This document shows positions 10,552 through 47,533 of a DNA stretch of 64,000 bases, one piece after another. The stretch lies in NCBI GenBank assembly GCA_029248525.1, contig JAQWJE010000049.1, positions 386,535 through 450,534 of the forward strand, read 5' to 3'. Within the stretch, counting starts at the first letter, position 1, and every line of letters begins with the position of its first letter. The stretch comes from Candidatus Binatia bacterium (GTDB taxonomy: Bacteria > Desulfobacterota > Binatia > UBA12015). The translations under genes were made by a program, and so were the position numbers. Below the pieces are notes generated by a model. The model was not told where the DNA came from. It searched no databases and was given only the letters and a program-made list of their open reading frames with translations.

Positions 10552-11418
10552 ATGCAGGGTTATTTGGGGATTCTGATCATTCTGGTGTTGGGATCGGGAT
10601 TGGCATGGGCCGGGAGCCAGGGAAGCGGTGCGGCATTCGGAATTCCGGTATTCGCAATATGCGCTGCCGTCGCCTTCGGTCTGAATTGGCTGATCTTTGT
10701 GCACGCCTGGCGGCGTCAAACCGAGGTGTATTTTGATCTCTCGGGTTCGTGCACATATTTGCTGGTCATCGCGCTGGCTGTCGCTCTTTCTCCGGAGGTC
10801 GGTCTGCGGGGCTGGTTGCTCGCGTCGATGGTGGTGGTCTGGGCTGTGCGGTTGGGATCCTTCCTCTTCGTGCGAGTGCGCCGGGACGGGGGCGATGGGC
10901 GCTTTGATTCCATCAAACCGAATTTCTCCCGATTTCTGTTTGCCTGGACGCTCCAGGGACTCTGGGTTCTGCTGACCGCGGCATGCGCTCTGGCCGCGAT
11001 CACGGGCAGCTCGGCGCCTGCGATCGGCATCGTTGGTGCGCTCGGTGTGTTGCTCTGGGTCCTGGGTTTTTCGATCGAGGTGATTGCCGATCGACAAAAA
11101 ACAGCCTTTCGCCAACGCGAGGAGAACCGGGGGCAGTTTATCACGGGCGGGCTATGGTCGTGGTCGAGGCACCCGAACTACGTGGGAGAGATCCTCTTGT
11201 GGGTGGGAGTCGCGTGCCTCGCTCTGCCGGCTCTCGAGGGTTGGAGTTATCTGATGCTCATCTCGCCGGTGTTTGTGTACGTGCTTCTGTCCCGAATCAG
11301 CGGTGTACCGATGCTCGAGGCGCGAGGGCTCAAGAAATGGGGCGAAGACGCGTCTTATCGCGAGCACCTCGAGAAGACCCCCGTACTCTTCCCCTGGCCG
11401 CGGGCAAGCGGCGAGTAG
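10552..11418 (+). CDS. DUF1295 / steroid 5-alpha-reductase-like membrane protein
   Basis: Polytopic membrane protein with WSWSRHPNYVGE motif typical of the DUF1295/ICMT/5-alpha-reductase superfamily. 288 aa. Confidence 0.6.
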   Translation: MQGYLGILIILVLGSGLAWAGSQGSGAAFGIPVFAICAAVAFGLNWLIFVHAWRRQTEVYFDLSGSCTYLLVIALAVALSPEVGLRGWLLASMVVVWAVRLGSFLFVRVRRDGGDGRFDSIKPNFSRFLFAWTLQGLWVLLTAACALAAITGSSAPAIGIVGALGVLLWVLGFSIEVIADRQKTAFRQREENRGQFITGGLWSWSRHPNYVGEILLWVGVACLALPALEGWSYLMLISPVFVYVLLSRISGVPMLEARGLKKWGEDASYREHLEKTPVLFPWPRASGE

Positions 11419-11436
11419 CCGAGGGGGCGTTGTCGA

Positions 11437-11853
11437 TCAGCTTTTCAGAGCGTCGCCCAGCCAGCCGACCATCATGGTGTACATCCCGGTCACGGCAGCC
11501 TCGGCCTCTTCTTCGGTCCCGGTCGGGTTGGCTTCACAGCTCCATTCGATCTGTGTTTGTCCACCGCCGAGGTCGGTCAGCTTCACCGTCGCGAGGTATT
11601 GGTCGAGGGGCAGAGGCAGATTGTTGGGAATCTCGTAGGAGAAGGTCTTTGCCTGCTCGTCAAAAGCGACCAAGGTCTCCTGAATCTCGGCCCCGGGAGC
11701 GCCAAAGAACCGGGACATGCCAACTCCTTCGCCTTCGACTCGGACGGAATCGCCGAGTCCCGGAACCCAGCTGACGTTGCCAAAATCTCCCAATACCGCC
11801 CAAACGGTGTCCAGGGGGAATTCCAATGTTTCCGTTACGCCAAATTTTCCCAT
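11437..11853 (-). CDS. SRPBCC-family (polyketide cyclase/dehydrase-like) protein
   Basis: ORF 11437..12033. Start moved to ATG at 11853 (MGKFGV...) preceded by GAGGAG RBS. Remaining sequence is SRPBCC-like. Confidence 0.5.
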   Translation of the reverse strand: MGKFGVTETLEFPLDTVWAVLGDFGNVSWVPGLGDSVRVEGEGVGMSRFFGAPGAEIQETLVAFDEQAKTFSYEIPNNLPLPLDQYLATVKLTDLGGGQTQIEWSCEANPTGTEEEAEAAVTGMYTMMVGWLGDALKS

Positions 11854-19873: not shown

Positions 19874-20800
19874 ATGAGCCAGCAGACGGCCAAATCCGCT
19901 CGGACGCGCGGACGACTTTCCTGGGAAGCCCCATTGGCGAGGATTGTGCAAAGTCGCAGTGGTCCTCTGCCGGACCTGTCCACTCCTCCCGGAGAGAGTG
20001 GATTGGTGGAACCCGACTCGGTTTCATGGCGTGTGTTCAAGAACCCCGTTAGCCTTTTTATCGGTGGGGTTTCTGCGGTCCTCCTCGAGTTGGCCGAGCC
20101 CCGAGTCCGCTCGGGGGTCTGGGACTTCACCAGTTTTCGCACCGACCCGATGGCGCGGATGCAGAGGACCGGTGCTGCGGCGATGCTCACGGTGTACGGC
20201 GCCCGGAGCATGGCCGAGAAGCGGATCGCCGGAGTCCGGCGGATGCACGACGGGGTCGCGGGGATCACCCCCGATGGAATCGCCTACCAGGCGAATGATC
20301 CTCATTTGCTGAATTGGGTCCATGCAACCGCGGCCTTTGGGTTTCTCGAGGCTTATGATCAGTTCGTCAGGCCCGTTTCTCCGCAGGATCGCGATCGCTA
20401 TTGGGCGGAAGGGCAAATCGCGGCCGGGCTGTACGGCGCGGATGCTCCTCCGGTCTCGCAGGCCGAATGGGAGAATCGCCTTGCCGGGATGCTTCCGGAG
20501 TTGGAGCCATCAGCGATTGTTTTCGATTTTCTGGCGATCCTTCAGGCGGCACCCATTTTCCCTCGCCTTTTTCGACCGTGTCAGCATTCGATGATTCGTG
20601 CCGCGGTGACCATGACGCCGTCGGCGGTGCGCGATCGTTTGGGTCTGGATGCAACGTGGGATCTTTCGCCCCGGGAACGTCGTTGGATCTGTCGGGGTGG
20701 TCTTTGGAGTGATCGGGTATTTCTGACCTCCTCGCCCCCGGCGCAAGCCTGCCTGCGGATGGGGTTGCCTGCCAATTATCTATACCGCTCGGCGGTATAG
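19874..20800 (+). CDS. MpaB/DUF2236-family oxygenase-like protein
   Basis: 308 aa. Resembles ER-bound oxygenase MpaB/rubber oxygenase-related DUF2236 family. Recollection-based. Confidence 0.5.
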   Translation: MSQQTAKSARTRGRLSWEAPLARIVQSRSGPLPDLSTPPGESGLVEPDSVSWRVFKNPVSLFIGGVSAVLLELAEPRVRSGVWDFTSFRTDPMARMQRTGAAAMLTVYGARSMAEKRIAGVRRMHDGVAGITPDGIAYQANDPHLLNWVHATAAFGFLEAYDQFVRPVSPQDRDRYWAEGQIAAGLYGADAPPVSQAEWENRLAGMLPELEPSAIVFDFLAILQAAPIFPRLFRPCQHSMIRAAVTMTPSAVRDRLGLDATWDLSPRERRWICRGGLWSDRVFLTSSPPAQACLRMGLPANYLYRSAV

Positions 20801-23634: not shown

Positions 23635-24261
23635 TCAGTGATCTTGCTCGGAAGGATCGGTCGTATCGGGTCCGATGGCAATTTGGCCCAAATATTGACG
23701 GAGGGCGGCTCGCAGCGAATTTTGCGGGAACAGGTCCGGTGCGAAATGATGACTGGTCGCGAGCCCGGTCACCAGCCCGGCGAGAACGATCGCCTGATCC
23801 CTCGGGATCAGGCTCGACCGCAATTCGCCGAGTTTGCGGGCGCGGGCGAGGAGCTTCTCGATCTGGGCGATCAGAGCACTCTGCGAGCTCTCCTCGATGG
23901 CGATTAGGTCATCGGCGGTCTCGCCCTGGCGGGGAAGAGCCAACCGGATCTGCCAATCCAGAGCCCTCTCTTCATCGAGAGGTAAAAGGGCGCCGAGGGC
24001 ACGCTCGAGGGTGCTGATACCGCCACCTGTCCCGACGGCGACCAGAAAGCGTCCCGCCTGCCGTCGGTGCACCCAGCGGCAGGCCTCGACGAGGAGATCG
24101 CTCTGGTTCTCGAAATAATGCCGAATCAGACCCGCGGAGTAGCCAGCCTCACGAGCCACCTCGCGCAGCGTCATCCGGGCGAGCCCATGGCGCCCCAATG
24201 TGCGCGCGGCGGCCGCTGCGAAATCGGCTCGGCGGCTGGCTGTGTCGATGATTTTGGGCAA
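23635..24261 (-). CDS. TetR/AcrR-family transcriptional regulator
   Basis: N-terminal HTH LREVAREAGYSAGLIRHYF. TTG start with AGAGGAAAG RBS. Immediately upstream of the sulfotransferase gene on the same strand. Confidence 0.7.
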   Translation of the reverse strand: MPKIIDTASRRADFAAAAARTLGRHGLARMTLREVAREAGYSAGLIRHYFENQSDLLVEACRWVHRRQAGRFLVAVGTGGGISTLERALGALLPLDEERALDWQIRLALPRQGETADDLIAIEESSQSALIAQIEKLLARARKLGELRSSLIPRDQAIVLAGLVTGLATSHHFAPDLFPQNSLRAALRQYLGQIAIGPDTTDPSEQDH

Positions 24262-24278
24262 GAAGCTTTCCTCTTTAA

Positions 24279-24303
24279 TTATTATTATGCACAGGAATAA
24301 TAA
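24279..24303 (-). promoter_or_regulatory. Palindromic candidate TetR operator
   Basis: TTATTATT-N9-AATAATAA inverted repeat in a locally AT-rich patch, 18-40 nt upstream of the tetR TTG start. Confidence 0.35.
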
Positions 24304-24363
24304 AAAAGTAAATGAGTTTAGGGTCGCAAGCTGATATTCGCGATGCGGTCACGAGGTTTGGGG

Positions 24364-26592
24364 CTAGGGCTGATCGATGAAAATCGGTGAGGACCAGGCG
24401 CGGTGGGCAGCATCCGCCAGACAATTATCGTCCCAGGGCCGCCCGAAACAGGGGCTTACACTGGCGCAGGTCACGCCATCTTCCTTCTGGCAATGCAGGG
24501 GGTTCGCGCCCACGGTCGGGGTCGGTTCCTCGATTGCGCGCGCGTAGTAGAGGACATCGCGGCCTGAGCCGAGAAACTCCGGATCGCTGAAGGTGACCTT
24601 GCAGCCAGAGCTGTCGTTTGGGCAGGGCAGCTGTTTCCAGGGGTCTTCGATCAGGGGGGCGACGTTCTCACCGGCGAACCTCTGCGGGCGAATCCGCACA
24701 ATATCGATGTGCGTAATCACGTTGCGCTCGTCGGAGGGAAAGTAGCACTCTCCCTGACAAAGGCGCTCGAGTCGGTCTCCAGCCATGGATCCGAGGGCAT
24801 CCGGAGGGCATCCGGGCTTCTGGCGGAAGGAACCGACCGCGCGAACCTCGAATGCCGGGTTTTCGCTGAGTTTGGTCTCGGCGCCCATGGGCAGGGTTTT
24901 TCCCTCAGGTCCATTGGTGAGGTCGAACCAGAGGAGAATGCGGGGCCCGCTGGTTCCATAGACTTCGCGGCGCTGCATCGCGTCCCAGATCGCGCCCCGG
25001 TCCCGGCCGCTTGCGTGCACCGCCGTGAGTCCGCCGTTGAGGAAAAAGGAAGCCTGCCTCTCGGTCTCGAAATTCGCAAAAGGGACATCGATCGCATCCA
25101 TTTCGATCGCCACAGACTCGCCGATCGGGTCGCGGGTATCCCTCGATCCGAGTTGAGTATCGAGGAAATTACCGAAGCGAGCTTCGGTGAACTCCTGACG
25201 GGAAATGGGCTTGTAGCCGGTTCCCGGGCGGGCCGAGTGGTTGTCGCTGGCGGCAAGGAAACCGAAGCGGAAGCGGTCCCGACCGGCGTCGTTTTCGGGC
25301 CGGTTGAGCGCCATAATGTACTGCGCGGAGCTTTTCGGCCGATAGTTGAAGGCCGGGATGAAGCAATCCTTGCACTGACCGGCATCCTGCCAGTCGGCGA
25401 TCGTCGTGCTCGGTACCGTCGAATATCCCCCATTGAAGGAGGCGTCGATATAACGGCGGCGCGCGAGTGCCGCCTTGTCCGCGCAATCCTGAGCGGAGTT
25501 GCCCTCGGCAACGCAGCGCGCGGCAACAATTTCTCCGGCACGCCAGCAGGAAGGTTTGTAGAGGTCGCTTTGTGGCGGCGGGCAGGCCTTTTCATTGTTG
25601 GCACCCAGAAGAACTTCTTCCCAATCACGATATTCCTCGGAGTTGCCGTGTCCGGAGTAGACCTCGATCAGGCGTTGCCAGCGCGGGCTATGCTGGGTGT
25701 TGGTCAGCTGCTTGTCCCAGGAGGAGCCCAACGGTGTGTAGAAACCCCAACTGGTCCCGTGCGGAATGACCAGAGAATCGAGGTTCCAATCATCGAGCCG
25801 GTCGAAAAGTTCTGCGGGTGTGGGTGCCGTATCCCGACAATTATCCGGGAGTTCTCGCACCGGGATGCCTTTCGGGCATGCAGGTACGCTGGAGAGTTCG
25901 GTGAAAAAGCGGGCCAATTCGGGGCCGCCGGAATCAGCTTCGGCGATGGCCAGAAGGCCCATGACCAGCGCGGGAGGAGCAGCTTCGGTCAACGGCGGAA
26001 GTCCCGGAGGCGTTCCGGCCGTGATGGGGTGCGTCGGAATACGCGCGTCGTCAAGATCCCGAAAAATCACGTTTTTGTGGCCCCAATGGTTGGTGGGCTC
26101 GGTGCCGACCTGCGTCCACTCCCAGCCGAGATAGGAAACCAGATCGGGATTGGTATCGCCTCCGATCTGCTGGCATTGACGCATCGAGTCAATGGTTTCT
26201 TCCCAACGTCGAGGGGTCAGGCTGAGGGCGTGGTCGTTGATCGACCAGAAGTCCAAACCGCTGCAATGACGAGCGAAATCGCAGGCATCAGCGACCGGAT
26301 AGGCTCCTGATCCGCCCGCCATGGGCAAGCTCATCTGAAAGGCGTCGAAGGAGAAAGTGGTGTGGACATGCAGATCGCCAAACAAGATCTGCTTTGGCGC
26401 CTCGACGCCGACCGATTTTGCGGCTTTCTCGATCGCGGCGGCTCGCTCGGCGATGACCGCGGGTGCGACTACTTTCCCCTGCGGGACGCCGCCGATCATG
26501 CTCTCGGCAAAATAGCCCTTGCCGAGAATGAAAAGCGTCACCAGGGACAGGCCCACGAGGCCGGCCAATACGATCAGGATCTTGTTTCGCAT
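24364..26592 (-). CDS. DUF3604-domain secreted protein (paralog 1)
   Basis: 742 aa. Signal/TM N-terminus. FGDLHVHTTFSFDA motif (PHP-like metal-binding) characteristic of DUF3604. Paralogous to the 39742..41757 gene. Confidence 0.6.
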   Translation of the reverse strand: MRNKILIVLAGLVGLSLVTLFILGKGYFAESMIGGVPQGKVVAPAVIAERAAAIEKAAKSVGVEAPKQILFGDLHVHTTFSFDAFQMSLPMAGGSGAYPVADACDFARHCSGLDFWSINDHALSLTPRRWEETIDSMRQCQQIGGDTNPDLVSYLGWEWTQVGTEPTNHWGHKNVIFRDLDDARIPTHPITAGTPPGLPPLTEAAPPALVMGLLAIAEADSGGPELARFFTELSSVPACPKGIPVRELPDNCRDTAPTPAELFDRLDDWNLDSLVIPHGTSWGFYTPLGSSWDKQLTNTQHSPRWQRLIEVYSGHGNSEEYRDWEEVLLGANNEKACPPPQSDLYKPSCWRAGEIVAARCVAEGNSAQDCADKAALARRRYIDASFNGGYSTVPSTTIADWQDAGQCKDCFIPAFNYRPKSSAQYIMALNRPENDAGRDRFRFGFLAASDNHSARPGTGYKPISRQEFTEARFGNFLDTQLGSRDTRDPIGESVAIEMDAIDVPFANFETERQASFFLNGGLTAVHASGRDRGAIWDAMQRREVYGTSGPRILLWFDLTNGPEGKTLPMGAETKLSENPAFEVRAVGSFRQKPGCPPDALGSMAGDRLERLCQGECYFPSDERNVITHIDIVRIRPQRFAGENVAPLIEDPWKQLPCPNDSSGCKVTFSDPEFLGSGRDVLYYARAIEEPTPTVGANPLHCQKEDGVTCASVSPCFGRPWDDNCLADAAHRAWSSPIFIDQP

Positions 26593-44676: not shown

Positions 44677-45687
44677 TCAGCTGCCCGGGCTGATCAAAAG
44701 CTTGATCTGGTCGGTCTGCACCCGGAAACTCGCAAAGACTTCGTTGATCTCGTCCAGTCGATGCACGCTCGAGACCAGGCGGGACACGTCGATAGCCCGA
44801 CTGGCAACCATGGCGACGGCCTCGTCGAATTGCTGCGGGGTGTAGGCAATCGAGGGTAGCAGCGAGATACCACGGTCGACCCAATGACCGGGCTCGATCT
44901 TGGAATGCGCGTGGTAGCTGGCGACCATGACCACGCGACCCCCAATGCGGGCGATGCCGCCCGCGCGGTCAATGGCGTCCTCCTTGCCACTGGCTTCGAT
45001 CACGACTTCCGGTCCACCCAGAGTCAGATCGCGCAGGCGTTCGTCGGCCAGCTCGTCAGCGACAAAGGCGCCGAGTCCCAGAGAGTGAGCGGTTCGGACT
45101 CGATCCGAGCGATGATCGATCCCGAATACCAGTGCGCCGCGTTCCTTGGCGATCAGGCCCGCAAAAAGCCCCAAAGGGCCCAGGCCGAGAATTCCGACGC
45201 GCGTGCCCGCGGCGATGCGGCCCAGATCAACCGCTGCTTGCGCTACCGCAAGGGGTTCCACGAGGGCGAAACTTGCCGGGTCGAGATCCCCGGGGATTCG
45301 GCGCAGTTGCACTGCGGGTACGGTAATTCTTTCGGCGAGGGCGCCCGGCGTGCTGCCGCATCCCATCATCGCGCGCAGGCCGCTGCGGCAGAGATTCGGT
45401 CGGTGATCGGTGCATAATTCGCATCGACCGCAGTAGGGAATCGGCAGAACCGCGGCCGCATCCCCTTCTTCCCACTCTCGGACGGATCTGCCGATTTGCA
45501 GGACCCGTCCGGCGAATTCGTGGCCCAGAATGGTATCTGGTGCGAGTCCGGGAGCTTGCCAGAGGCTATGGTCGGTGCCGCAAATTCCGCAGGCATCCAC
45601 GCTCAGGACCACCTGATCTTCAGCGGGAACGGGTTCGGGAAGTTCCTCAATCCGGAACTTTCCCTCGGAGAGTAAAGCGGCTCGCAT
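44677..45687 (-). CDS. Zinc-dependent alcohol dehydrogenase (MDR family, threonine/sorbitol dehydrogenase-like)
   Basis: GICGTDHSLWQA...GHEFAGRV catalytic Zn motif. Structural Zn cysteines (CGRCELCTDHRPNLC). GxGxxG (GILGLGPLG). Start at Met 45687. Confidence 0.75.
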   Translation of the reverse strand: MRAALLSEGKFRIEELPEPVPAEDQVVLSVDACGICGTDHSLWQAPGLAPDTILGHEFAGRVLQIGRSVREWEEGDAAAVLPIPYCGRCELCTDHRPNLCRSGLRAMMGCGSTPGALAERITVPAVQLRRIPGDLDPASFALVEPLAVAQAAVDLGRIAAGTRVGILGLGPLGLFAGLIAKERGALVFGIDHRSDRVRTAHSLGLGAFVADELADERLRDLTLGGPEVVIEASGKEDAIDRAGGIARIGGRVVMVASYHAHSKIEPGHWVDRGISLLPSIAYTPQQFDEAVAMVASRAIDVSRLVSSVHRLDEINEVFASFRVQTDQIKLLISPGS

Positions 45688-46091
45688 GATTCCTTTGGCA
45701 CGGGTGCAGGATTTCGGCCCGAACTGCAAATGAAACCGCGGATGCAGGAACCCCCTGTTCCAAGGAAGGGGTGGGAAATTGGCCCCTTGCCCTGCAGTTC
45801 GACGTCGAACTTGCGGCCCTTGGGGCGTCGCCGGCAAGACTGCCGTCTCGGGACAATCCAACCGGGGGAGGGCCTTTTCCGGCGACCGGCTATTTCTTTT
45901 TGGTGCGAGAGGCCGCGATGGCCTCCTTTTTACGTGCGCGGGCGACTTCTTTCCGACGTTTCCGGCGGCGTTTGATTTCCTTCGTGCGTTCACTGGCCAT
46001 GGCGGTGTCTGTACGCAAGCCCGGCAAGGCCCGCAATGCAATATGAGAAGTTTTCCGCAGCCCCGGGGGATCTTTGCGCCGGGGGGCTATC

Positions 46092-46140
46092 GGACAATTT
46101 CGAACAATGGTGGACAATTCTGCGCGGCAAAATTGTACCA
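46092..46140 (+). promoter_or_regulatory. Phased repeat array (possible enhancer-binding-protein UAS)
   Basis: GGACAATT at ~46092 and ~46112 (direct, 20 bp apart) and inverted copy AATTGTaCCA at ~46131. Located ~75-120 bp upstream of the putative -24/-12. Followed by an AT-rich tract. Confidence 0.35.
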
Positions 46141-46212
46141 TTTCAGTTCCGTAGATTTCAGGAAACCCTTATTTTTATTGATTTTTCTTGAATCGCGGTG
46201 GCCGATAAGGCT

Positions 46213-46228
46213 TGGCAAGGTTCTCGCT
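46213..46228 (+). promoter_or_regulatory. Candidate sigma-54 (-24/-12) promoter upstream of fliA-like gene
   Basis: TGGCAaggttctcGCt: GG and GC elements separated by 10 nt as in TGGCAC-N5-TTGCA consensus. About 55 nt upstream of ATG 46283. Confidence 0.35.
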
Positions 46229-46282
46229 ATAAAGCTTCGCATCACAGGATCCACGGTTGGATCGAGAGGGGATAAAAGAGTC

Positions 46283-47167
46283 ATGGGTGCACAGGCAGCG
46301 GTGAGGAAGATGGTGGCGGGGGCCGAGTTGGCAGCGGAGACCTCGTTTGATGCGGAATTGGAATTGAACTCGGAGGTCATGGACGCCGATGTCGAGCAGC
46401 AAAGACTATTTTGCGGGGAACTGCTCGGCACCGAACAGAGTCCATATGACGAGGAGATCGTCCGAAGTCATTTACCCCTGGTTCGTCAGGTAGTTCAGCG
46501 GATGTTGCCGCGAAAGCCGCCTGAAGTCGCGGCCGAGGACCTCATTTCCTGGGGCACCCTGGGCTTGCTTGATGCCATGCGCAAATTCGATTCGGACCGA
46601 GAGGCCTCGTTTTCGACCTATGCGCAATATCGCATCAAGGGGACGATTCTCGACTATCTGCGCCGATGTGACTGGTTGCCGAGAAGCATGCGTCAGCGCG
46701 CCCACGAGATCGATTCGGCTGTTGGCCGACTCGAGGGGGAATTGGGTCGGTCGCCGGTAGCTGAGGAAATTGCTGCCGAATTGGGCCTCAGTCTGCAGGA
46801 TTATAATCGCACGACGACGGATCTTAGTACCCAGGCACCGATTGCCACAGGGGATTTATCCTTTGGGCGCGGCGAGGAAATGCTTTGCGGGGACGATGTC
46901 CTCTCGGATGCGTCCGAAGCTGGACCGATGAAGAAGGTTTTGCGCAAGGAACGTGTCGAAATTCTGGCGGAAGCCATCGAAAAGCTCCCGGAAAAGGAGC
47001 GAATTGTCGTTTCCTGTTATTATTTCGAAGGGCTGACCATGCGCGAAATGGCTGAAGTGCTCAGCCTCACCGAAGGTCGGATCTCCCAGCTGCACAGCCA
47101 GGCGATGGGCCGGATGCGGGGATTGCTGGCGGATTGTCGGGAGGAGATCCGGCTCGGCGAAGAATAA
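46283..47167 (+). CDS. fliA: RNA polymerase sigma factor, FliA/WhiG (sigma-28) family
   Basis: Region 2 (DLISWGTLGLLDAMRKFD), region 4 (LPEKERIVVSCYYFEGLTMREMAEVLSLTEGRISQLHSQAMGRMR) closely match FliA. ATG at 46283 with GAGAGGGG/AAAAGAG RBS. Confidence 0.7.
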   Translation: MGAQAAVRKMVAGAELAAETSFDAELELNSEVMDADVEQQRLFCGELLGTEQSPYDEEIVRSHLPLVRQVVQRMLPRKPPEVAAEDLISWGTLGLLDAMRKFDSDREASFSTYAQYRIKGTILDYLRRCDWLPRSMRQRAHEIDSAVGRLEGELGRSPVAEEIAAELGLSLQDYNRTTTDLSTQAPIATGDLSFGRGEEMLCGDDVLSDASEAGPMKKVLRKERVEILAEAIEKLPEKERIVVSCYYFEGLTMREMAEVLSLTEGRISQLHSQAMGRMRGLLADCREEIRLGEE

Positions 47168-47308
47168 ATTTCAACTGCCCGAAAATTATAAAAGTCCCTG
47201 AGATTACAGAGGCTTAATCAATTTATCCCGGCGAAGGGGGTCGCATGACTGCGACTTTTTTTCGCAGAACCCTAAAGCTGCGCCTTGTGGCGGTCGATAG
47301 CTGTTCCA

Positions 47309-47533
47309 ATGAGTGCATTTGATTTTCTCGGGCGGGGGCATGGGGATCACACGGGTCTGGACGCATTATTGGCGACCTCTTTCGGGTCGCGGGCACGCTG
47401 CCAAAGGCTTCGGGCTGCCGTGGAAGCGGGCACCTATCGGCCGGATGCCCGCCGGGTTGCCGAGGCGATGCTTTCGGGGCCGTGTGCGGACTTCTTTCAG
47501 GTTCAGATGGGAGAGATCCCTCTGGCTTCCTGA
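47309..47533 (+). CDS. flgM: Anti-sigma-28 factor FlgM
   Basis: 74 aa. C-terminal LRAAVEAGTYRPDARRVAEAML matches FlgM sigma-28-binding motif. Directly downstream of fliA-like gene. Confidence 0.5.
   Translation: MSAFDFLGRGHGDHTGLDALLATSFGSRARCQRLRAAVEAGTYRPDARRVAEAMLSGPCADFFQVQMGEIPLAS

What the first reader, a model, noticed from the sequence alone, without database searches (positions are those of the whole stretch)
46092..46240. Structured regulatory region: phased GGACAATT repeats, AT-rich tract, sigma-54-like -24/-12 element
In a ~600-nt intergenic region there are three copies of a 8-9 bp motif at 20-bp spacing (two direct, one inverted). They are followed by an unusually AT-rich stretch (possible IHF bend) and then TGGCA-N7-GC with correct GG/GC spacing. 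This is the classic architecture of an enhancer-dependent sigma-54 promoter. It is known to drive fliA in several proteobacteria.
Basis: partly seen in the sequence, partly recalled or inferred. Interest (0 to 1): 0.55.

Follow-up and report, generated by a model that had tools for sequence, protein, structure and literature searches.

The report
Sigma-54 promoter of a FliA-like gene
The flagged stretch is most likely the control region of a sigma-28-like (FliA-family) regulator gene in an uncultured Binatia bacterium, with a conserved sigma-54-type promoter and conserved upstream boxes: a well-known design seen here in an unstudied lineage.

Summary
GGACAATT occurs at 46092 and 46112, a 7/8 inverted copy lies at 46132, an AT-rich tract follows, and TGGCAAGGTTCTCGCT sits at 46213-46228 with sigma-54 GG/GC spacing. 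By sequence alone, the promoter match and the repeat are near chance level. Comparison with relatives decides the matter. The window is from Candidatus Binatia. In 22 non-redundant orthologous loci the 16-mer is 85% identical, against 31-39% in every flanking bin, and TGG, G7, T10, T12 and GC never vary. The second box lies 99-101 bp upstream of it in most loci, although the DNA between is not conserved. Binatia flagellar clusters carry canonical sigma-54 promoters and an enhancer-binding-protein gene.

The gene is not in a flagellar cluster. It is a FliA/WhiG-family sigma factor followed by its own FlgM-like gene, which has a conserved sigma-28-type promoter. A conserved 36-aa basic ORF lies divergently upstream. 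No IHF consensus was found. The inverted copy and the AT tract occur only in the closest relatives.

Verdict: a probable enhancer-dependent sigma-54 promoter, a new member of a known kind, of modest interest. No TSS mapping, rpoN gene or activator was available for this organism itself.

The parts
45890..46000 (-). Conserved 36-aa basic ORF (MASERTKEIKRRRKRRKEVARARKKEAIAASRTKKK), transcribed divergently from the sigma gene
   Evidence: Found 198-258 nt from the 16-mer in 19 of the 20 orthologous loci with enough upstream sequence. Synonymous changes are visible. It was called as a 36-aa gene. Pfam gives only a sub-threshold DUF6800 match (E 0.058).
46008..46036 (-). Possible promoter of the small ORF: TTGCGG (46036-46031), N17, TACAGA (46013-46008), then 7 nt to the ATG with no Shine-Dalgarno. 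Possibly a leaderless transcript.
   Evidence: Read by eye from the printouts. The TTGCnn-N17-TAnnnn-N7-9-ATG pattern recurs in both clades. This is inference. The -10 lacks the final T and the scan did not flag it.
46092..46105 (+). Box I, GGACAATTTCGAAC. Contains GGACAATT copy 1 and overlaps the degenerate copy GAACAATG (46102-46109). About -147 to -134 from the predicted TSS.
   Evidence: The pattern [G/A]ACA-nnTYCGAAC is conserved in all 8 sequences of the window's clade. At the same position (-120 to -123 from TGG) distant orthologues have the dyad GTCA-N6-TGAC.
46112..46125 (+). Box II, GGACAATTCTGCGC. Contains GGACAATT copy 2. About -127 to -114 from the predicted TSS.
   Evidence: G-n-ACAAT-Y is conserved in the window's clade. 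The related box (CAGGATYCTGC, TACAAAATTG) sits at -99 to -101 from TGG in most loci and at -112 in two.
46132..46139 (-). Inverted copy AATTGTAC, the right arm of the palindrome at 46114-46136. On the minus strand it reads TGgTACAAT, an extended -10-like sequence.
   Evidence: Conserved only in relatives at 87% identity or more (L001, L098-L100). Absent in L002, L101 and L104.
46164..46193 (.). AT-rich tract (80% A+T). It includes TTTTTC at 46182-46187, the only part with wider conservation.
   Evidence: T at -29 and -28 from TGG occurs in 19 and 15 of 21 loci. No IHF consensus was found.
46213..46228 (+). Sigma-54-type -24/-12 element TGGCAAGGTTCTCGCT (GG at 46214-46215, GC at 46226-46227)
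   Evidence: Mean pairwise identity is 85% against 31-39% in flanking bins. The pattern TGGMAMGSTTCTSGC occurs once in each of the 22 loci that match it, all of them orthologous, and in none of the other 84 fetched loci.
46238..46241 (+). Predicted transcription start, 11-13 nt downstream of the -12 C at 46227
   Evidence: Inferred from sigma-54 promoter geometry. Not mapped. The stretch CCGCA(T/A)CAC around it is conserved in the window's clade.
46283..47167 (+). FliA/WhiG-family sigma factor gene (294 aa). A Shine-Dalgarno-like AGAGGGG lies at 46265-46271.
   Evidence: TIGR02479 scores 244 bits against a cut-off of 189.6. Pfam finds regions 2, 3 and 4. Orthologues are 62-92% identical.
47240..47262 (+). 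Terminator-like hairpin GTCGCA-TGAC-TGCGAC followed by T7, between the sigma and FlgM-like genes
   Evidence: Sequence. RNA fold gives -18.1 kcal/mol, z = -2.9. The pattern scan did not flag it. T-runs at the same place appear in relatives of the window's clade.
47273..47300 (+). Sigma-28-type promoter TAAAGCTG-N12-GTCGATAG, ending 8 nt before the ATG of the FlgM-like ORF. The transcript would be leaderless or nearly so.
   Evidence: It is the only match in the window, against 0.19 expected. CTAA(A/G)GTT-N12/13-nyCCGnTGA-N8-ATG recurs upstream of the FlgM-like ORF in about 19 orthologous loci (printout).
47309..47533 (+). FlgM-like anti-sigma-28 gene (74 aa)
   Evidence: Pfam FlgM scores 28.4 bits against a cut-off of 25. 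An FlgM gene sits in the same position in L101-L104 and L106. Translation.

Best explanation
The region 46001-46282 is the control region of a FliA/WhiG-family (sigma-28-like) sigma factor gene in a Candidatus Binatia bacterium.

Proposed mechanism:
1. RNA polymerase carrying sigma-54 binds TGGCAAGGTTCTCGCT (46213-46228) as a closed complex.
2. An AAA+ enhancer-binding protein, not yet identified, binds the tandem boxes that contain the two direct GGACAATT copies (46092-46105 and 46112-46125). These lie about 115-147 bp upstream of the predicted start and are 20 bp apart, so on one face of the helix.
3. The activator reaches the polymerase by looping across the AT-rich spacer and drives open-complex formation near 46239.
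4. The sigma factor made then transcribes its own FlgM-like anti-sigma gene from a sigma-28-type promoter at 47273-47300. This gives a sigma-54 -> sigma-28-like -> anti-sigma circuit.

Shown here: the sequence elements, their conservation and spacing, the identities of the genes, and that Binatia have sigma-54-type promoters and EBP genes.

Inferred: sigma-54 binding, activator binding to the boxes, looping, the transcription start, and the feedback loop.
For: The 16-mer:
- It is present upstream of the sigma gene in 19 of 20 orthologous loci and in the loci fetched later.
- In 22 non-redundant loci T1, G2, G3, G7, T10, T12, G14 and C15 are invariant.
- Mean pairwise identity is 0.85 in the 16-mer and 0.31-0.39 in every flanking 16-nt bin.
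- The pattern occurs once per locus in the 22 loci that match, all orthologous, and nowhere in 84 other loci.
- It lies 25-60 nt upstream of a GGAGG-type Shine-Dalgarno and the ATG.
- It has GG-N10-GC spacing and 1-2 mismatches to the consensus in the window's clade.
- The -12 variant TCGC is that of glnA in Salmonella. TGGAACGCTTTTCGCA, nearly identical to the Binatia versions, is a ChIP-bound sigma-54 site in Salmonella (PMC3844500).
- It is the only one of the window's top-scoring PWM or consensus matches that is intergenic and faces a gene start.

The boxes:
- Both are conserved in the window's clade.
- Box II sits at -99 to -101 from TGG in most loci, although the intervening DNA is unconserved. 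Its distance to the divergent small ORF varies by more than 50 bp.
- The left halves of Box I and Box II resemble each other within each genome and change together between clades: ACAAT-type against CAG(G)AT-type.

Sigma-54 in Binatia:
- Two independent Binatia flagellar clusters carry 1-mismatch sigma-54 consensus sites 30-56 nt upstream of fliL and flgF. In L105 there are 2 sites against 0.20 expected.
- A GTCA-N6-TGAC dyad like Box I of the distant orthologues lies upstream of both sites in L105 and of the fliL site in L107.
- A Sigma54_activat/HTH_8 gene lies next to each cluster.
Against: - By sequence alone the -24/-12 match is at chance level.
- Position 13, which is T in 28 of 29 Salmonella sites, is never T in Binatia. 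Position 4, which is C in 29 of 29, is A in 14 of 22. The spacer is also conserved. The conservation profile therefore does not correlate with the sigma-54 information profile (r = 0.19).
- No rpoN gene, EBP gene or flagellar gene lies in the 64-kb window.
- No IHF consensus is present.
- In the window the boxes are direct repeats, whereas most EBPs bind inverted repeats. The window's Box I does not fit GTCA-N6-TGAC.
- The two direct repeats can also be read as a sigma-70-like promoter in all 7 members of the window's clade.
- No transcript data exist.
Confidence: 0.6

Rival explanations
1. The two direct GGACAATT copies are the -35 (CGGACA, 46091-46096) and -10 (GACAAT, 46113-46118) hexamers of an ordinary sigma-70-type promoter with a 16-nt spacer. 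It would start near 46125 and give the sigma gene a leader of about 158 nt. This promoter could act alone or as a second, upstream promoter alongside the sigma-54 one.
For: A -35/-10 pair with a 16-nt spacer lies at the same position in all 7 sequences of the window's clade, scoring 8-10 of 12. L002 reads GTGACA-N16-TACAAT and L104 reads GGGACA-N16-TACAAT. A2 and T6 of the -10 are invariant.
Against: - None of the 12 more distant orthologous loci has such a pair, although the boxes are conserved there at the same position.
- TYCGAAC inside the supposed spacer is invariant, which a spacer does not explain.
- The two boxes resemble each other and change together between clades, which is not expected of -35 and -10 hexamers.
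- The window's own version scores only 8 of 12 and the promoter scan did not call it.
- This reading does not explain the 16-mer footprint.
Confidence: 0.2
2. The conserved 16-mer is not a sigma-54 promoter. It would instead be the operator of a sequence-specific regulator, or the promoter of another sigma factor. The transcript would then start elsewhere.
For: - The whole 16-mer is conserved, including the spacer.
- Systematic departures from the sigma-54 consensus occur at positions 4 and 13.
- GAAC-G-GTTC is palindromic in 14 of 22 loci.
- The PWM score is below that of all experimentally supported Salmonella promoters.
Against: - The palindrome is lost in the window's clade and in the GAACGCTTC versions. 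The invariant TGG and GC lie outside it and have no symmetric partner.
- No conserved -10 lies 16-18 nt downstream, as an ECF or sigma-70 -35 reading would require.
- The element sits at promoter distance from the Shine-Dalgarno and ATG in all loci.
- Sigma-54 binds near-identical sequences in Salmonella.
Confidence: 0.13
3. The repeat block mainly serves the divergent 36-aa ORF. The inverted copy would be an extended -10 (TGgTACAAT, 46140-46132) with -35 CTGAAA (46161-46156) on the minus strand. Alternatively, the boxes would be activator or operator sites for that gene.
For: - The promoter scan finds CTGAAA-18-TACAAT with an upstream TG on the minus strand, against 0.2 expected.
- The divergent arrangement is conserved in 19 of 20 loci.
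- In seven distant loci the reverse complement of Box II reads TGGCAGRATCCTGGC, which has GG-N10-GC and points towards the small ORF.
Against: - The minus-strand extended -10 is conserved only in relatives at 87% identity or more.
- The boxes keep a fixed distance to the 16-mer but a variable distance to the small ORF.
- The small ORF has its own conserved TTGCnn-N17-TA... motif directly upstream of its ATG.
Confidence: 0.1

Closest known systems
Vibrio cholerae polar-flagellum hierarchy: class II fliA activated by FlrA with sigma-54, and class IV flgMN transcribed by FliA
   Same: The wiring is the same. An enhancer-dependent sigma-54 promoter sits in front of a sigma-28 gene, and the anti-sigma gene is under a sigma-28-type promoter (bioRxiv 10.1101/2021.05.10.443453; window elements).
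   Different: Here the sigma gene lies outside any flagellar cluster and is paired with its own FlgM-like gene. It sits next to a conserved 36-aa ORF and metabolic genes. The activator is unknown. Nothing has been tested experimentally.
E. coli / Salmonella glnAp2 (NtrC-activated sigma-54 promoter)
   Same: The -12 region is TCGC rather than TTGC (glnA is TGGCACAGATTTCGCT, PMC3844500). By my own recollection, not checked here, tandem activator sites lie roughly 100-140 bp upstream.
   Different: By my own recollection, NtrC sites are inverted repeats. The window's boxes are direct repeats with a different sequence, and the regulon is different.
Pseudomonas aeruginosa FleQ box GTCaNTAAAtTGAC
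   Same: Box I of the distant Binatia orthologues has the same GTCA-N6-TGAC geometry. So do the dyads upstream of sigma-54 promoters in the two Binatia flagellar clusters: fliL and flgF in L105, fliL in L107 (consensus quoted in PMC6120874).
   Different: The window's own Box I, GGACAATTTCGAAC, does not fit. Only a GGACAA-type half-site is shared, and it occurs as direct repeats. The Binatia EBP next to the flagellar cluster shows no FleQ-type N-terminal domain among its Pfam hits.
Sigma-54 ChIP-bound site in Salmonella rumA, TGGAACGCTTTTCGCA
   Same: It is almost identical to the Binatia versions of the 16-mer, for example TGGAACGCTTTTCGCG in L053 and TGGAACGCTTCTCGCT in L051.
   Different: The Salmonella site is intragenic and has no known promoter function.

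Membership tests
Sigma-54 (RpoN)-dependent -24/-12 promoter | GG and GC dinucleotides with 10 nt between them, within TGGCAC-N5-TTGC | tested here: met
   TGGCAAGGTTCTCGCT at 46213-46228 has 2 mismatches to TGGCACG-N4-TTGCW. Orthologues have 1-4 mismatches to the probe 16-mer TGGCACGGTTCTCGCT and always keep GG and GC.
Sigma-54 (RpoN)-dependent -24/-12 promoter | Match stronger than expected by chance from sequence alone | tested here: not met
   10 matches against 8.9 expected in the window. The PWM score is 10.1 bits, rank 6 of about 128,000, below the minimum of 15.0 among 29 Salmonella sites.
Sigma-54 (RpoN)-dependent -24/-12 promoter | Element conserved at the same place in orthologous promoters | tested here: met
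   In 22 non-redundant loci, identity is 85% against 31-39% in the flanks. The pattern is absent from 84 non-orthologous loci.
Sigma-54 (RpoN)-dependent -24/-12 promoter | rpoN present in the same genome | not testable with these tools
   Only 64 kb of this organism is available, and no RpoN-box or rpoN-like ORF is in it. Indirect, class-level evidence comes from the EBP genes and canonical -24/-12 sites in two Binatia flagellar clusters.
Sigma-54 (RpoN)-dependent -24/-12 promoter | Upstream activator sites bound by an AAA+ enhancer-binding protein | tested here: inconclusive
   Two conserved boxes lie at a fixed distance of about 100-121 bp from TGG. No EBP gene is in the window and binding cannot be tested.
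Sigma-54 (RpoN)-dependent -24/-12 promoter | Transcription start about 12 nt downstream of the GC, dependent on rpoN | not testable with these tools
   No transcript data are available. The start is predicted at 46238-46241.
IHF-assisted sigma-54 promoter | IHF consensus WATCAR-N4-TTR between the activator sites and -24 | tested here: not met
   No match with at most 1 mismatch in the 90 nt upstream of TGG, in the window or in 18 orthologous loci. The AT-rich tract (at least 70% A+T in 30 nt) occurs only in the window, L001, L098 and L099.
FliA/WhiG (sigma-28) family sigma factor | Family model above the curated cut-off; regions 2, 3 and 4 | tested here: met
   TIGR02479 scores 244 bits against a cut-off of 189.6. 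Pfam finds Sigma70_r2, r3 and r4.
FliA/WhiG (sigma-28) family sigma factor | Cognate FlgM anti-sigma factor | tested here: met
   The ORF at 47309-47533 matches Pfam FlgM at 28.4 bits against a cut-off of 25. An FlgM gene sits in the same position in orthologous loci.
FliA/WhiG (sigma-28) family sigma factor | Encoded within the flagellar gene cluster (flhA-flhF-flhG-fliA) | tested here: not met
   The neighbours are ADH, a 36-aa ORF, CN_hydrolase and MoeA. The fliA gene inside Binatia flagellar clusters belongs to a different group, 51-55% identical. Whether both occur in one genome could not be established.
FliA/WhiG (sigma-28) family sigma factor | Sigma-28-type promoter (TAAA-N15/16-GCCGATAA) at a target gene | tested here: met
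   TAAAGCTG-N12-GTCGATAG lies at 47273-47300 in front of the FlgM-like ORF. The motif is conserved in about 19 loci. Recognition by this sigma factor is inferred.
FleQ-box activator site (GTCaNTAAAtTGAC) | 14-bp dyad GTCA-N6-TGAC upstream of the sigma-54 promoter | tested here: not met
   The window's Box I, GGACAATTTCGAAC, does not fit. The dyad is present in distant orthologues and upstream of Binatia sigma-54 flagellar promoters.

The most novel reading that the evidence does not exclude
Binatia carry a second sigma-28/anti-sigma-28 module, separate from the flagellar gene cluster, wired as sigma-54 promoter -> FliA-like sigma -> sigma-28-type, leaderless FlgM-like gene. It is always paired with a divergently encoded 36-aa basic protein. 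In the window's clade, which includes ocean-metagenome members, the upstream activator sites have been rebuilt from a FleQ-box-like dyad into phased direct repeats. This would imply a change of activator, or of its binding mode, and possibly a non-flagellar role for the module. Some Binatota orders are reported to lack flagellar genes (PMC8262859).
Probability: 0.3. Interest if true: 0.45.

Novelty: new member of a known kind. Interest (0 to 1): 0.3.

Why it matters
Candidatus Binatia is an uncultured lineage whose gene regulation has not been studied experimentally. This region gives a conserved and testable example of an enhancer-dependent promoter there. It also points to a sigma-54 -> sigma-28-like -> FlgM-like cascade that sits outside the flagellar cluster. 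It supplies motifs for predicting the sigma-54, activator and sigma-28 regulons in Binatia genomes: the 16-mer, the two boxes, the GTCA-N6-TGAC dyad and the CTAAAGTT...CCGnTGA promoter. It does not reveal a new kind of mechanism.

Tried and rejected
- **GCCGATAA at 46201-46208.** This is the exact sigma-28 -10 consensus and suggested autoregulation. There is no TAAA at the required spacing, and it is not conserved even in relatives at 87-89% identity. I take it as chance.
- **IHF site in the AT tract.** No consensus match in any locus.
- **Sigma-70 reading of TTGGCA...TATAAA around the 16-mer.** The spacing is wrong and no conserved -10 follows.
- **ECF reading (GGAAC-N16/17-CGT).** No conserved downstream block, and the window's clade has GGCAA instead.
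- **Structured RNA in the leader.** No Rfam match at E <= 1 in 45600-46400.
- **PWM scoring with Salmonella sites.** Uninformative alone. Even the canonical Binatia flagellar promoters score only 9.5-10.0 bits, because their spacers are GC-rich.
- **A second GG/GC reading on the minus strand of the window** (TGGTACAATTTTGCC). The spacing is one base short.
- **rpoN or EBP motifs in all fetched DNA (560 kb).** Nothing was found in Binatia loci apart from the EBP genes annotated beside the flagellar clusters.
- **Literature on rpoN in Binatia.** None found.
- **Co-occurrence of the two FliA groups in one genome, via accession numbers.** Uninformative.
- **Sigma-28-type promoters within the two flagellar-cluster loci.** None found with the pattern used.
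- **The third GGACAATT in the window (61997, minus strand).** It lies inside a TonB-receptor ORF and is taken as chance.
Full report
**What is in the sequence.**
GGACAATT is exact at 46092-46099 and 46112-46119. AATTGTAC at 46132-46139 is a 7/8 inverted copy, so the three starts are 20 bp apart. A degenerate copy, GAACAATG at 46102-46109, falls between the first two in 10-bp phase. Positions 46114-46136 form a 10-3-10 palindrome. The stretch 46140-46195 is 70% A+T against a window mean of 40%, which is the top 0.08% of positions. 46164-46193 reaches 80%. TGGCAAGGTTCTCGCT lies at 46213-46228. The gap is TGGCA-N8-GC rather than N7, but GG-N10-GC is the sigma-54 spacing, with 2 mismatches to TGGCACG-N4-TTGCW.

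**How far sequence alone goes.**
Not far.
- The window holds 10 matches with at most 2 mismatches, against 8.9 expected.
- I built a PWM from the 29 intergenic Salmonella sigma-54 sites in PMC3844500. The site scores 10.1 bits, rank 6 of about 128,000 positions and below every training site.
- An exact 8-mer repeat within 40 bp arises in 9% of shuffles of the intergenic region.
- The site is, however, the only high-scoring match that is intergenic and faces a gene start.

**Genes around it.**
- The downstream gene (46283-47167) is a FliA/WhiG-family sigma factor: TIGR02479 scores 244 bits against a cut-off of 189.6.
- It is followed by a terminator-like hairpin with T7 at 47240-47262.
- Next comes a 74-aa FlgM-like ORF at 47309-47533 (Pfam FlgM 28.4 bits against 25).
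- Then come CN_hydrolase and two MoeA genes.
- Upstream on the other strand lie a 36-aa basic ORF (45890-46000) and a zinc-type alcohol dehydrogenase. The real intergenic region is therefore 282 nt, not about 600.
- None of the roughly 40 larger ORFs scanned across the 64 kb matches a flagellar gene, rpoN or an EBP. A motif scan for GAFTGA and the RpoN box also finds none.

**Organism and orthologues.**
The window is identical to a JGI metagenome contig (L045). Its relatives are MAGs labelled Candidatus Binatia or 'Deltaproteobacteria'. I fetched orthologous loci at 62-92% protein identity. The gene order is conserved: ADH, the 36-aa ORF on the minus strand, then sigma, FlgM-like, CN_hydrolase and MoeA on the plus strand.

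A second group of Binatia FliA proteins is 51-55% identical and about 265 aa long. It sits inside flagellar clusters (flhA-flhF-flhG-fliA...flgM-flgN-flgK) in two independent contigs. The window's gene is therefore a FliA-like gene outside the flagellar cluster. Whether both types occur in one genome could not be settled. Flagellar genes are reported for most Binatota orders, but not all (PMC8262859).

**The 16-mer is a phylogenetic footprint.**
- A version of it lies upstream of the sigma gene in 19 of 20 loci from the first scans and in all loci fetched later.
- In 22 non-redundant loci, T1, G2, G3, G7, T10, T12, G14 and C15 are invariant.
- Mean pairwise identity is 0.85 in the 16-mer and 0.31-0.39 in every neighbouring 16-nt bin.
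- TGGMAMGSTTCTSGC occurs once in each of the 22 loci that match it, all orthologous, and in none of the other 84 loci fetched by then.
- It lies 25-60 nt upstream of a Shine-Dalgarno and the ATG.
- Its -12 variant TCGC is that of glnA. The near-identical TGGAACGCTTTTCGCA is a sigma-54 ChIP site in Salmonella.

Against a canonical reading:
- Position 13 is never T.
- Position 4 is A in 14 of 22 loci.
- The spacer is conserved too, so the conservation profile does not track the sigma-54 information profile (r = 0.19).

No conserved block follows at -10 distance. This argues against ECF or sigma-70 readings.

**Sigma-54 in Binatia.**
- In flagellar-cluster locus L105, two 1-mismatch consensus sites (TGGCACCGGCGTTGCT and TGGCACCGGCCTTGCT) lie 30-45 nt upstream of fliL and flgF. 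That is 2 found against 0.20 expected.
- L107 repeats this.
- Both clusters are flanked by a Sigma54_activat/HTH_8 gene.
- The class therefore uses enhancer-dependent sigma-54 transcription. For the window's own organism this remains an inference.

**The upstream boxes.**
- In the 8-sequence alignment of the window's clade, the conserved blocks are [G/A]ACA-nnTYCGAAC (Box I) and G-n-ACAAT-Y (Box II). These contain the two direct GGACAATT copies.
- The inverted copy and the strong AT tract are conserved only in relatives at 87% identity or more.
- In more distant loci, Box I is a GTCA-N6-TGAC dyad and Box II is CAGGATYCTGC or TACAAAATTG, at the same positions.
- Box II sits at -99 to -101 from TGG in most loci and at -112 in two, although the DNA between is not conserved. 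The distance to the small ORF varies by more than 50 bp. The boxes are therefore coupled to the 16-mer, not to the divergent gene.
- Within each genome the left halves of Box I and Box II resemble each other, and they differ together between clades. This fits two sites for one factor better than a -35/-10 pair.
- The GTCA-N6-TGAC dyad also lies upstream of both sigma-54 promoters in L105 (fliL and flgF) and of the fliL promoter in L107. It has the geometry of the P. aeruginosa FleQ box (PMC6120874).
- The window's Box I shares only a GGACAA-type half-site, arranged as direct repeats.
- A weakly conserved T-rich element (TTTTCC-like, T at -29 and -28) lies where the window has its AT tract. No IHF consensus is found in any locus.

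**Rival readings.**
- In the window's clade, all 7 sequences allow a sigma-70-like reading: -35 nnGACA, 16-nt spacer, -10 nACAAT, scoring 8-10 of 12. None of the 12 distant loci does.
- On the minus strand the inverted copy reads as an extended -10, but it is not conserved beyond the closest relatives.
- The small ORF has its own conserved TTGCnn-N17-TA... motif 7-9 nt from its ATG and no Shine-Dalgarno (read).

**Downstream circuit.**
CTAA(A/G)GTT-N12/13-nyCCGnTGA, a sigma-28-type promoter, ends about 8 nt before the ATG of the FlgM-like ORF in about 19 loci. In the window this is TAAAGCTG-N12-GTCGATAG at 47273-47300, the only match in the window against 0.19 expected. This suggests the FliA-like sigma factor transcribes its own anti-sigma gene. 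The same logic holds in Vibrio, where FlrA with sigma-54 activates fliA and FliA activates flgMN.

**Verdict.**
The sigma-54 enhancer-type reading is the best-supported explanation: I put the -24/-12 element at about 0.75 and the boxes as activator sites at about 0.5. The IHF idea is not supported. The third repeat and the AT tract are lineage-specific. The gene is a FliA-like sigma outside the flagellar cluster, with its own FlgM. This is a new member of a known kind in an unstudied lineage, of modest interest.

Noticed in passing
window 45890-46000 (-): A 36-aa, very basic ORF (MASERTKEIKRRRKRRKE...) is conserved and divergent from the sigma gene in 19 of 20 Binatia loci. It has only a sub-threshold DUF6800 match, no Shine-Dalgarno, and a conserved TTGCnn-N17-TA... 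motif 7-9 nt from the ATG. It may be leaderless. Its function is unknown.
   Followed up: partly
window 47273-47300 (+), and the same position in about 19 orthologous loci: A sigma-28-type promoter (CTAAAGTT-N12/13-nyCCGnTGA) ends about 8 nt before the ATG of the FlgM-like ORF (47309-47533). This implies a leaderless anti-sigma transcript dependent on the sigma-28-like factor.
   Followed up: partly
window 47240-47262 (+): The hairpin GTCGCA-TGAC-TGCGAC followed by T7 lies between the sigma and FlgM-like genes (-18.1 kcal/mol, z = -2.9). The pattern scan missed it. T-runs recur at this place in relatives.
   Followed up: partly
window 46201-46208 (+): GCCGATAA, the exact sigma-28 -10 consensus, lies 75 nt upstream of the sigma gene. 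There is no TAAA at -35 spacing and it is not conserved in the closest relatives. Probably chance.
   Followed up: yes
L105:894-975 and 11336-11541; L107:1002-1095 and 11228-11243: Two Binatia flagellar clusters carry near-consensus sigma-54 promoters (TGGCACCGGCNTTGCT) upstream of fliL and flgF. A GG(A/T)CAA-N4-TTGACC or GTCA-N6-TGAC dyad lies upstream of both in L105 and of fliL in L107. An EBP gene follows fliW in both clusters.
   Followed up: partly
L003, L005, L048, L049, L051, L054, L066, about -101 to -83 from TGG: In seven distant orthologues the reverse complement of Box II reads TGGCAGRATCCTGGC, with GG-N10-GC pointing at the small ORF. On the plus strand it also reads as a GCCAGG direct repeat with an 11-bp period. 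Its meaning is unresolved.
   Followed up: partly
L107:19760-19790 and about 19930-19975: Upstream of the EBP gene beside the flagellar cluster lie a TACAAAATTG motif, like Box II of L055, and a weak GG/GC element (TGGTATGGCTCCTGCT). The EBP gene might itself be sigma-54-dependent.
   Followed up: no
window 24228-24360: This is the most AT-rich spot of the window (77% A+T in 56 nt), between two minus-strand ORFs. Not examined.
   Followed up: no
whole window, pattern GKNCARNNNCYTGAC with at most 1 mismatch: There are 18 matches against 6.7 expected (0 of 100 shuffles reach 18). Nearly all are inside ORFs, including the palindrome GGTCAGCTGCTTGTCC at 25702-25717. This is probably an oligonucleotide or codon bias rather than binding sites.
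   Followed up: no
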